Position numbers and translations under genes: made by a program. Of a stretch of DNA of 64,000 nt, positions 56,555 to 61,496 are shown piece after piece. Below the pieces are notes generated by a model. The model did not search any database and was not told the DNA's origin. It saw only the letters and a program-made list of their open reading frames with translations. Source of the DNA: Promethearchaeota archaeon (lineage in GTDB: Archaea > Asgardarchaeota > Lokiarchaeia > Sigyniarchaeales > SOKP01); assembly GCA_030599585.1 (NCBI GenBank), contig JAUVNS010000005.1, positions 32,001-96,000 of the forward strand, read 5' to 3'. Within the stretch, counting starts at the first letter, position 1; every line of letters begins with the position of its first letter.

Positions 56555-56628
56555 TGGGAGAGGGGGGATTTGAACCCCCGGCCACCTGGTCCCAAACCAG
56601 GAATCATACCAAGCTAGACCACCCTCCC
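56555..56628 (-). tRNA. tRNA-Pro(UGG), intronless, CCA not encoded
   Basis: Acceptor GGGAGGG/CTCTCCC, anticodon arm CCTGG-TTTGGGA-CCAGG, T arm GGGGG-TTCAAAT-CCCCC. Confidence 0.96.
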
Positions 56629-59551: not shown

Positions 59552-60373
59552 ATGATAAAATTATTAATATTAGGGCCTTCTGGAGCAACCGGAAGATTAA
59601 TTTCTTCATTAGCGTTGACCGACGATGAAATTAATGTAGTAGCGGCGTGTGATCTTGCGCATATAGGTGAAGATCTAGGGTCCTTGTTAGCATCTCCTAA
59701 CCCTGATAATATAAAGATCAAAGACGTAAATCAGCTTCAAGAAATCATTGATGAAACTAATCCAGATGTGGTTGTAGATTTTACAATCGCGAGTGCAACA
59801 GAAAAAAACTGTAGAATCTGCGTTAAGAATGGAATCAGATGTGTAATTGGAACAACTGCCATGTCGAAGGAATTCTTGGAGGATTTTGAAGAACTCGTAG
59901 AAAAGCATAATGCTCCTTCAATAATATCACCAAATATGGCAACTGGAGTAAATGTTCTGTTTAAAATTGCTGGAATTTTGACGAACTATTTAAATGAATG
60001 GGATATTGAAGTAATTGAAGCCCATCATCATAGAAAAATGGATTCACCTAGTGGTACTGCCTTGAAAATTGGAGAAGTTATAAGTAAAGCTCTAGATGTT
60101 GATTTAAATGCAATTGCTAAGTTCGGACGCAATAAAGGTCCAAATAAACGCTTAGTTGGAGCTAAAAACGAAATAGGGATCCATTCAGTTAGGGGTGGTG
60201 ATATTGTTGGCGACCACACTATTTTATTTGCAGGATCAGGGGAACGCATTGAATTAAAGCATCAAGCCCATAACAGAACATGTTTTGCTACAGGCGCTAT
60301 TAAAGCTATTAAATTTATCTCTCAAGCTACAGAAAATAGGATTTATAGTACAAACGATGTATTAGGTTTGTGA
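59552..60373 (+). CDS. dapB: 4-hydroxy-tetrahydrodipicolinate reductase
   Basis: VDFT, IGTT, EAHHHRKMDSPSGTA, RGGDIVGDH. Confidence 0.96.
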   Translation: MIKLLILGPSGATGRLISSLALTDDEINVVAACDLAHIGEDLGSLLASPNPDNIKIKDVNQLQEIIDETNPDVVVDFTIASATEKNCRICVKNGIRCVIGTTAMSKEFLEDFEELVEKHNAPSIISPNMATGVNVLFKIAGILTNYLNEWDIEVIEAHHHRKMDSPSGTALKIGEVISKALDVDLNAIAKFGRNKGPNKRLVGAKNEIGIHSVRGGDIVGDHTILFAGSGERIELKHQAHNRTCFATGAIKAIKFISQATENRIYSTNDVLGL

Positions 60374-60392
60374 GAGAGATAAAATTATAAAA

Positions 60393-60460
60393 GATCAGGG
60401 CAGATCAGTCTTATCATCAATCTATATTATACAGATTTCATATTGCCAACTCTTCATTTA
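60393..60460 (-). ncRNA. Box C/D 2'-O-methylation guide sRNA (candidate)
   Basis: Minus strand: C ATGAAGA - guide GTTGGCAAT - D' ATGA - hairpin AATCTGTA/TATAGATT - C' TGATGA - guide TAAGACTGATCTGCC - D CTGA. Confidence 0.72.
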
Positions 60461-60527
60461 GAAGGTTTAAAGGGTATCCAGTCCTTAAAGCTTCCTTATT
60501 TATAATTCTATCTCGTGATAATAAATG

Positions 60528-61496
60528 TTATAAAAGATTTAATTCTTTTTTCTTTTTCCACATTCGATCAGTTAATATTAGTACAATCATGATTCCTAAT
60601 TGAATTAAATCTGATGCAAGAGTCGAAGGTAAGAATTCATATGTTATATTTCCAATCGTATGCATTAACGCAGTAGCTAAAACGCTTCCTCCAGTACGAT
60701 TATAAAGCCAAGTAAGAATTATGGCTATTTTTATTGTGTTTAATAAAAAAATACCAAATTGAGAACCATATTGAGGTAGGTATATAGGCGCATGCCAAAA
60801 CCCCCATATTAAACCTAAAATTATACTTGCGATAAGAGGTGAAAATTTTGTTTGCAATCTTGGTAATGCAAAACCACGCCATCCAGGTTCTTCGTTAGTT
60901 CCTGCACCATAGAAAAATGTGTACATAAAAGTAATAGCTATTAATCCGATAAGTTCAAGACCAATAGGTAAGCTTATCCAGTAAACATCTTGACCTAGAG
61001 ATAATGTAAAAATAGTACCTAGTAGAAGAGAACTGGGTATCAATAGAATTGCTATGAGATACCAAACAAAGTGTCCTTTTGGCTTTATATATGATCGAAA
61101 AACCATTTTGACATCAGGGTTATTTGAAAAACCAGATGATATCACAAGTGCTGGTAATAACCCTAAAAAAATAGCTCCCACTATGATTACAATTGATAAA
61201 TCCATTGTTCTTATGTTTATGATAAACGTTAGTGTAGCTATTATCCATACTACTGTAAATATAGCCCACTTTAATTTTTTCCTACTGTCATTTTGCTGAA
61301 GACCAGTCATTCTTGAAATAATTAACGCAGTAATTGCAGGTGCGTAGATACCAATAAAAATTAAAAGTTGACTAATTACATTGAGAAATAGTAAATAAAT
61401 GAAGAAAAAGACCCATGAGATTATAAAAGTGAAAAGAAAGAAAGTAAGAAGAGGGTATTTTTTAATATAACTTATTGAATTAGCTATATCTATCAC
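60528..61496 (-). CDS. CPBP/CAAX (Abi) family intramembrane glutamic endopeptidase
   Basis: EEPGWRG, WGFWH, MH...N; multiple TM segments. Confidence 0.92.
   Translation of the reverse strand: MIDIANSISYIKKYPLLTFFLFTFIISWVFFFIYLLFLNVISQLLIFIGIYAPAITALIISRMTGLQQNDSRKKLKWAIFTVVWIIATLTFIINIRTMDLSIVIIVGAIFLGLLPALVISSGFSNNPDVKMVFRSYIKPKGHFVWYLIAILLIPSSLLLGTIFTLSLGQDVYWISLPIGLELIGLIAITFMYTFFYGAGTNEEPGWRGFALPRLQTKFSPLIASIILGLIWGFWHAPIYLPQYGSQFGIFLLNTIKIAIILTWLYNRTGGSVLATALMHTIGNITYEFLPSTLASDLIQLGIMIVLILTDRMWKKKKELNLL

What the first reader, a model, noticed from the sequence alone, without database searches (positions are those of the whole stretch)
60393..60460. Hidden box C/D guide RNA that may specify the eukaryote-conserved SSU rRNA Gm1428/Gm1490 methylation
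Seen: the dapB-CPBP gap, read on the minus strand, has all four boxes in the correct order: C ATGAAGA (60457-60451), D' ATGA (60441-60438), C' TGATGA (60419-60414) and D CTGA (60398-60395). An 8-bp stem joins D' and C', which is longer than the short loop of most archaeal sRNAs and more snoRNA-like. The D guide ACUGAUCUGCC is complementary, with one G-U pair, to GGCAGGUCAGU. From recall, not verified here: archaeal 16S helix 34 often reads GG(C/U)AGGUCAGUAUGCCCC, and the eukaryotic equivalent AACAGGUCUGUGAUGCCC carries yeast Gm1428 (snR56) and human Gm1490 (SNORD25). Inference: the D+5 rule selects the first G after CA, which would be the same position, making this a functional counterpart of a eukaryotic snoRNA in a probable Asgard archaeon. 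The target of the D' guide (AUUGCCAAC) is unknown.
Basis: partly seen in the sequence, partly recalled or inferred. Interest (0 to 1): 0.82.

Follow-up and report, generated by a model that had tools for sequence, protein, structure and literature searches.

The report
Extended Asgard rRNA methylation guide RNA
This is a real, conserved small RNA gene of Loki-type Asgard archaea that most likely directs a sugar methylation onto the same small-subunit rRNA guanosine that yeast snR56 and human U25 mark; that job is ordinary and also known from a non-Asgard archaeon, but the RNA is twice the usual size and carries an extra hairpin that may grip a second site on the rRNA.

Summary
Confirmed, and larger than reported. 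The boxes sit in a ~140-nt RNA (60514-60376, minus strand) that fills the gap between dapB and the CAAX-protease gene. It has a 16-bp terminal stem, a hairpin 5' of box C, and the C/D core. All three stems covary in 37 homologues. About 100 of 134 genomes of the host's family match the guide pattern. The host 16S has the predicted site. The D guide pairs 11 bp (one G-U) and selects G1158, the column of yeast Gm1428 and human Gm1490, in the same register as Rfam snR56. Fibrillarin, Nop5 and L7Ae are encoded. Corrections: box C' is 60417-60411; the site is not Asgard-specific (Pyrobaculum sR32 has the same guide); descent shared with snR56/U25 cannot be shown; no copy was found in the genome matching cultured MK-D1. 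New here: the hairpin loop GGAUACC is nearly invariant, and its only conserved rRNA complement is 16S 1032-1038, next to helix 34. That suggests an extra, eukaryote-style contact, but there is no compensatory change to prove it. The D' target is unresolved. No expression or methylation data. This scan found the same RNA earlier in other genomes.

The parts
60376..60514 (-). Whole predicted RNA (~139 nt), filling the gap between the CAAX-protease gene stop (60528) and the dapB stop (60373, opposite strand)
   Evidence: Fold z = -3.15; covariance model R1 hit 60373-60520 (self-match by construction); covariation
60499..60514 (-). P1, 5' strand of the 16-bp terminal stem
   Evidence: The inverted repeat occurs only here in the genome; 11 of 16 pairs show changes on both sides, 93% of cells paired; strongly rewritten but still paired in L061, L064, L117, L119
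60483..60495 (-). P2 hairpin, 5' arm
   Evidence: 9 of 13 pairs with changes on both sides; coordinates
60473..60482 (-). P2 loop (10 nt); 3' part GGAUACC (60479-60473) complementary to 16S 1032-1038 at the h36/h37 junction: candidate extra pairing element
   Evidence: GAUACC in all 48 homologues tabulated (it anchored that extraction) and invariant in the alignment of sequences found by the D guide alone; 16S site invariant in all family 16S read; rival 23S sites not conserved
60460..60472 (-). P2 hairpin, 3' arm
60451..60457 (-). Box C (AUGAAGA)
   Evidence: AUGA and the next-but-one G invariant in 37 homologues
60442..60450 (-). D' spacer/guide (9 nt, core UGGC); target unresolved, best prior 16S 1012-1022 (h34 5' strand)
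   Evidence: the homologue in L004 pairs 10 bp with its own 16S at this segment
60438..60441 (-). Box D' (AUGA)
   Evidence: GA invariant
60419..60437 (-). P3 stem-loop (8 bp here, variable length), closing the internal kink-turn
   Evidence: 5 of 6 counted pairs with changes on both sides
60411..60417 (-). Box C' (AUGAUAA), corrected register
60399..60409 (-). D guide; D+5 (60403) pairs with 16S G1158
   Evidence: (rank 1 of 7425 sites)
60395..60398 (-). Box D (CUGA)
   Evidence: one homologue (L114) has CUAA
60376..60391 (-). P1, 3' strand of the terminal stem, U-rich (possible terminator role, inferred)
59552..60373 (+). dapB (flanking gene, convergent)
   Evidence: Pfam DapB_N/DapB_C; synteny with dapB and lysA kept across the family
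60528..61496 (-). CAAX-protease (Rce1-like/CPBP) gene, upstream on the same strand; absent at this spot in most relatives

Best explanation
A box C/D methylation guide RNA of Lokiarchaeia. L7Ae binds the two kink-turns (C/D and C'/D'), Nop5 and fibrillarin join, the D guide pairs with the 3' strand of 16S helix 34, and fibrillarin methylates the ribose of G1158 (E. coli column 1197, yeast G1428, human G1490). Shown here: boxes, stems, conservation, complementarity to the host's own 16S, column equivalence, presence of the three proteins. Inferred: transcription (probably read through from dapF-lysA and trimmed at the long P1 stem), protein binding and methylation. Add-on, about 45%: the P2 loop pairs with 16S 1032-1038 and the D' spacer weakly with 1012-1022, so one RNA holds both strands of helix 34 and the h36/h37 junction during head assembly, which could offset the G-U next to the target.
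For: Target present once in host 16S. Rank 1 of 7425 rRNA/tRNA positions averaged over 42 homologues. D+3 to D+5, D+7 and D+8 are Watson-Crick in 48 of 48 homologues. D+6 alternates U/C across Asgard lineages (C in G194, G157-G162, G119, G166, G168), which fits a G partner (16S) and not an A partner. 25 of 48 extend the duplex to D+12. Target motif invariant in 30 Asgard 16S. Structure: 25 of 35 pairs change on both sides, 0 of 500 shuffles reach it, slid controls lower. Fibrillarin and Nop5 adjacent on C32, L7Ae family present. Same register as Rfam snR56 and Pca sR32. Duplex energy -19.3 kcal/mol.
Against: A G-U pair sits directly beside the target in 47 of 48 homologues; I could not retrieve the paper that tests such pairs. 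No intact copy was found in three single-contig genomes of the sister family, including the 4,324,194-bp one matching MK-D1 (the model search scored only 150 candidates per genome). Homologues are kin, so counts overstate independence. The P2-loop contact has no compensatory change.
Confidence: 0.82

Rival explanations
1. Pairing-only chaperone: the RNP binds helix 34 (and h36/h37) to help folding but methylates poorly or not at all, because of the conserved G-U at D+6 and the short, degenerate D' spacer.
For: U at D+6 is kept in 47 of 48 homologues although C would pair better (-19.3 against -21.9 kcal/mol). Conserved mismatches at the target are described for Pyrobaculum sRNAs (PMC6009581), and chaperone roles for long-range guides (PMC4644070).
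Against: D+5 is a strict C-G pair in 48 of 48, at the register used by snR56 and Pca sR32; box D is canonical.
Confidence: 0.08
2. The D guide also (or instead) targets G10 of tRNA-Ala, whose D arm is complementary; the U at D+6 is kept so that both RNAs can be read.
For: 10-11 bp with host tRNA-Ala, -15.2 and -18.7 kcal/mol; rank 2-3. The A11 tRNA-Ala type occurs in the two families with U-type guides (f1, f19), and G168 (C-type guide) lacks it.
Against: C at D+6 in several lineages breaks this pairing. D+3 is always G, a wobble with tRNA U8. tRNA position 16 varies (U, A, C) within the family while D+11 stays A in 46 of 48. G089 has a U-type match but a C11 tRNA. From my own knowledge, G10 carries base methylation by Trm11, not ribose methylation.
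Confidence: 0.07
3. For the P2 loop only: it is a protein-binding loop that resembles the 16S helix-24 (790) loop, not an antisense element.
For: The loop and its flanks match the host h24 sequence at 16S 738-750 in 11 of 13 positions; GAUACCC is invariant.
Against: Covariation fixes a register that leaves a 10-nt loop with both Cs unpaired, whereas h24 has a 9-nt loop (columns 48-49 with 60-61; h24 geometry from my knowledge). The 5' loop positions vary freely.
Confidence: 0.15
4. Not an RNA gene: the inverted repeats are promoters or terminators, or ends of a mobile element, and the boxes are chance.
For: The P1 strand looks like BRE-TATA; partial duplicates of the 3' half flank inserted genes in G016 and G020.
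Against: P1 is rewritten without a TATA-like sequence yet stays paired in L061 and L064; one copy per genome at a fixed locus; guide and boxes are invariant while loops vary.
Confidence: 0.02

Closest known systems
Pyrobaculum calidifontis C/D box sRNA sR32 (Dennis et al. 2015, PMC4644070, additional files 1 and 3)
   Same: Nearly identical D guide, same 16S column, four boxes; sequenced RNA with a predicted target
   Different: About 50 nt as listed, no long terminal stem, no 5' hairpin, perfect Watson-Crick guide, unrelated D' guide
Yeast snR56 (Rfam RF01188) / human SNORD25-U25 (RF00054), clan CL00049
   Same: [quoted passage not shown]
   Different: Guide sits before D' in snR56, before D here; no Rfam match for this RNA, even weak; no P1/P2 equivalent in the consensus; likeness confined to the guide
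Eukaryotic box C/D snoRNAs with extra base-pairing elements (van Nues et al. 2011, PMC3116282; e.g. snR70, snR75, snR87/U16)
   Same: A conserved non-guide segment complementary to rRNA, 4-11 bp, that can raise methylation
   Different: There the element lies between D' and C', in the second guide region or in a spacer, and pairs next to the site in sequence. Here it is in a hairpin loop 5' of box C and pairs ~120 nt upstream, near only in the folded head domain. Untested here.
Long-range double-guide archaeal sRNAs Neq sR15 and sR17 (PMC4644070)
   Same: Two contacts on opposite strands of one 16S helix, proposed folding chaperones. Asgard families f19 and f21 show this for helix 34 with the same guide.
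   Different: In this RNA the second guide is short and degenerate, and a third element is added

Membership tests
Archaeal box C/D sRNA | Boxes C, D', C', D in order with conserved GA dinucleotides | tested here: met
   C and C' deviate from RUGAUGA by one base each
Archaeal box C/D sRNA | Guide of 10-12 nt before D or D' complementary to rRNA with a Watson-Crick pair at +5 | tested here: met
   D guide, 11 bp, C-G at +5
Archaeal box C/D sRNA | Second functional (D') guide | tested here: inconclusive
   9-nt spacer; three candidates (16S C1016, 16S C471, 23S U2753), none with 9 Watson-Crick pairs; the 23S one has G-U at +5 in 41 of 48
Archaeal box C/D sRNA | Length about 50-70 nt (PMC7994747) | tested here: not met
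   Core C-to-D is 63 nt, but the covarying structure spans ~139 nt; the mature ends are unknown, so this is a deviation of the predicted fold, not of a measured RNA
Archaeal box C/D sRNA | Host encodes L7Ae, Nop5 and fibrillarin | tested here: met
Archaeal box C/D sRNA | Expressed, bound by L7Ae, directs 2'-O-methylation | not testable with these tools
SNORD25/snR56 (Rfam clan CL00049) | Targets the SSU Gm1428/Gm1490 column | tested here: met
SNORD25/snR56 (Rfam clan CL00049) | Scores above the Rfam gathering threshold | tested here: not met
   No hit at gathering or at E<=10; other Asgard guides reach only 15-25 bits against 54
SNORD25/snR56 (Rfam clan CL00049) | Common descent (similarity outside guide and boxes) | tested here: inconclusive
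   The snR56 consensus has a 9-mer complementary to the 18S column that the P2 loop would bind, but it lies at the C' position and is absent from the Dictyostelium DdR1 and Plasmodium snoR25 consensus
snoRNA extra base-pairing element (van Nues 2011) | Conserved non-guide segment complementary to conserved rRNA near the site | tested here: inconclusive
   Conserved 7-bp complement at 16S 1032-1038, 23S rivals lost in relatives, but no compensatory change and not adjacent in sequence
snoRNA extra base-pairing element (van Nues 2011) | Stimulates methylation when paired | not testable with these tools
   needs loop mutants and rescue

The most novel reading that the evidence does not exclude
An archaeal box C/D RNA with a third rRNA contact: a hairpin loop 5' of box C pairs with the 16S h36/h37 junction while the two spacers hold both strands of helix 34. 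This would be an archaeal case of eukaryote-style auxiliary pairing that chaperones the small-subunit head; I found no such archaeal architecture in the papers searched. A stronger version, shared ancestry with snR56/U25, is not excluded but is less likely (about 0.15) and hard to test.
Probability: 0.45. Interest if true: 0.65.

Novelty: new variant of a known kind. Interest (0 to 1): 0.45.

Why it matters
Asgard guide RNAs appear undescribed in the papers I could search, and Rfam misses this one. It gives a concrete, testable prediction that Loki-type archaea methylate a decoding-region nucleotide that yeast, humans, plants and Dictyostelium also methylate, and whose loss in yeast raises -1 frameshifting about 1.2-fold (PMC2794176). 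Because a Thermoproteota archaeon targets the same site, this points to an old or repeatedly chosen site, not to a special Asgard-eukaryote link. If the hairpin loop is a true extra contact, then the added pairing elements and larger size typical of eukaryotic snoRNAs also arise in archaea, and this 139-nt RNA is a small system in which to test that in vitro.

Tried and rejected
Rfam at gathering and at E<=10: no meaningful hit. Promoter reading of the inverted repeats: rejected by covariation; the motif is absent upstream of tRNA genes. SECIS reading of the AUGA-stem-GA part: rejected by inspection, since the stem is short and boxes C and D and the guide are conserved around it. Acetylation-guide (snR4/U13-like) reading: the CCG between the P2 and D' sites is CUG in eight relatives, several of which carry the RNA. 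23S targets for the P2 loop (positions 400 and 3326): not conserved in relatives that keep the loop. A parallel with the second guide of Dictyostelium DdR1: dropped, since CD1's other 17S target is U1456 (PMC8817022). TnpB insertion at the duplicated loci (lead e1-5654311): in G016 and G020 the gene between the copies is a 4Fe-4S protein. Search for copies in the sister family, hoping for a compensatory GACACC loop where 16S has G: candidates were coding-sequence chance matches. Genome-collection pattern scan gave only four bacterial chance hits. One 23S pattern was ill-chosen and uninformative. A relaxed scan for other host sRNAs stayed at chance level. The paper on guide-duplex rules was not held.

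Full report
Observation. The four boxes and both spacers are at the stated coordinates on the minus strand, in the 154-nt gap between dapB (+) and an Rce1-like CAAX-protease gene (-). Rfam finds nothing here at gathering thresholds or at E up to 10 that is meaningful. The host is an Asgard archaeon: it has four actin-family genes, and a genome of the same order is a single 4,324,194-bp contig, which fits the 4.32-Mb chromosome of Promethearchaeum syntrophicum MK-D1 (PMC11316595). That identification is by size and is an inference.

The target. The host 16S contains the predicted 11-mer once, at 1154. The D guide forms 11 bp with one G-U at D+6, and D+5 pairs with G1158. In eukaryotic 18S from metagenomes the first G after CA falls at position 1428 in four full-length sequences and aligns with host G1158. 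Gm1428 (snR56) and Gm1490 (U25) are listed as equivalent helix-34 marks (PMC2794176). The Rfam snR56 consensus has its guide in the same register relative to its box. By my count on the alignment of Dennis et al. the E. coli column is A1197.

Chance. In one genome a guide-like match means little: a relaxed scan gives 37 hits against 34-60 for control targets. A strict four-box pattern gives 10 hits, two with a 10-bp rRNA match. The decisive evidence is comparative. A C'-guide-D pattern matches 23 of 41 relatives with no control hits. A looser one matches 100 of 134 genomes of the host's family, a few by chance, against one control hit there. The locus stays between lysA and dapB. Averaged over 42 homologues, 16S 1155-1166 is the best of 7425 rRNA and tRNA positions. 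These genomes are kin, so the counts are not independent.

16S or tRNA. The same guide also pairs 10-11 bp with the D arm of tRNA-Ala and would select G10. The guide keeps U at D+6 in 47 of 48 homologues, which suits tRNA A11. But C occurs at D+6 in G194 of the same family and in four other Asgard families. U/C alternation fits only a G partner. D+3 is always G, and many homologues extend the 16S duplex at D+12 and D+13. So 16S is the main target. A second tRNA target remains a minor possibility, with a partial lineage correlation.

The RNA is larger than reported. It folds into a 16-bp terminal stem (P1, 60514-60499 with 60391-60376), a 13-bp hairpin 5' of box C (P2), and the D'-C' stem (P3); z = -3.15. 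On 37 homologues 25 of 35 pairs change on both sides, no shuffle of 500 reaches this, and slid registers score lower. P1 looks like a TATA element, but it is rewritten and still paired in L061, L064, L117 and L119, so it is an RNA helix. Fibrillarin and Nop5 are neighbours on contig C32 and L7Ae-family genes are present.

The P2 loop. Its 3' part, GGAUACC, is nearly invariant. Complements in host rRNA are 16S 1032 and 23S 400 and 3326, with similar energies. The two 23S sites are lost in relatives that keep the loop, whereas the 16S site is invariant in every family 16S read. It lies at the h36/h37 junction, 10 nt 3' of the helix-34 5' strand, in the antiparallel order expected if loop and D' spacer bind one rRNA segment. 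A given 7-mer in a 60-nt window has a rough, post hoc chance of 0.004 (my arithmetic). There is no compensatory change, because the site does not vary where the RNA was found. The loop also resembles the h24 loop, a rival reading. I put the antisense contact at about 45%.

The D' spacer. It is 9 nt and degenerate. Three readings compete: 16S C1016, 16S C471 and 23S U2753. None has nine Watson-Crick pairs. The homologue in G039 pairs 10 bp with 16S 1012-1021 of its own genome and would select G1015. Unrelated-looking RNAs in families f19 and f21 join the same guide to a second guide for 16S 1000-1008. Both favour the helix-34 5' strand. In the host family it probably pairs weakly and may not methylate.

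Comparison with what is known. It works like an archaeal box C/D sRNA and meets the testable membership features except size. The closest described RNA is Pyrobaculum calidifontis sR32, with the same guide and site, so the site is not an Asgard-eukaryote exclusive. It is a functional counterpart of snR56/U25 but fails the Rfam test, and likeness is limited to what the shared target forces; PMC3511168 makes the same point for other pairs. Extra pairing elements are known in yeast and human snoRNAs, snR56 among them, but they lie inside the boxes and pair next to the site (PMC3116282). The snR56 consensus does hold a 9-mer complementary to the 18S column matching 16S 1032-1040. It sits at the C' position and is missing from the DdR1 and Plasmodium snoR25 consensus, so I do not count it as evidence of descent.

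Limits. No intact copy was found in three single-contig genomes of the sister family, including the one matching MK-D1; the searches were filtered, so this is 'not found', not 'absent'. The full architecture was seen only in the host family and in one genome each of two neighbouring families (G026, G039). Earlier notes of this scan describe the same RNA in other genomes; they gave me the sR32 and snR56 leads, which I checked, and are not independent support.

Verdict. Real feature; a methylation guide for the predicted site with about 82% confidence; a new structural variant of a known kind; interest 0.45.

Noticed in passing
L009:1423-2996 / L027 (G016); L010, L028 (G020); also G250, G269: A second, partial copy of the RNA's 3' half (D' to the P1 3' strand) lies 1.1-1.5 kb away. 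In G016 and G020 a 367-372-aa 4Fe-4S protein gene sits between the copies, as if inserted with duplication of the RNA's end, like integration at tRNA genes.
   Followed up: partly
L123:1501-1647 (G177), L120:1501-1647 (G174): A divergent paralogue with the P2 hairpin but no clear P1 and a 1-nt insertion in the guide; in G177 it lies 385 nt from the canonical copy, whose box D reads CUAA.
   Followed up: partly
L048-L050, L052 (family f19); L053-L058 (family f21): Other Asgard C/D RNAs carry the same guide plus a second guide to 16S 1000-1008, selecting the column of yeast G1270 or Gm1271: both strands of helix 34 on one RNA. The f19 RNAs also have long terminal stems; in f21 the two guides are swapped.
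   Followed up: partly
L059 (G166), L126 (G168), L077 (G119): Further Asgard C/D-like RNAs with the Watson-Crick version of the guide and no P2 hairpin.
   Followed up: partly
G000:C3:16415-16517 and C11:145554-145626: Host tRNA-Ala genes have an A11-U24 pair and GC in place of the usual GG in the D loop; their D arm is complementary to the D guide.
   Followed up: partly
window 60528-61496: The CAAX-protease gene sits between lysA and the RNA here but not in most relatives, so this spot takes up genes.
   Followed up: partly
G000:C3:65805-69172: The 23S rRNA spans 3368 nt against 2987 model positions, with lineage-variable insertions, and is unlinked from the 16S (50 kb away).
   Followed up: no
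window 56555-56628: A tRNA-Pro gene on the minus strand, the only Rfam hit in the window.
   Followed up: no
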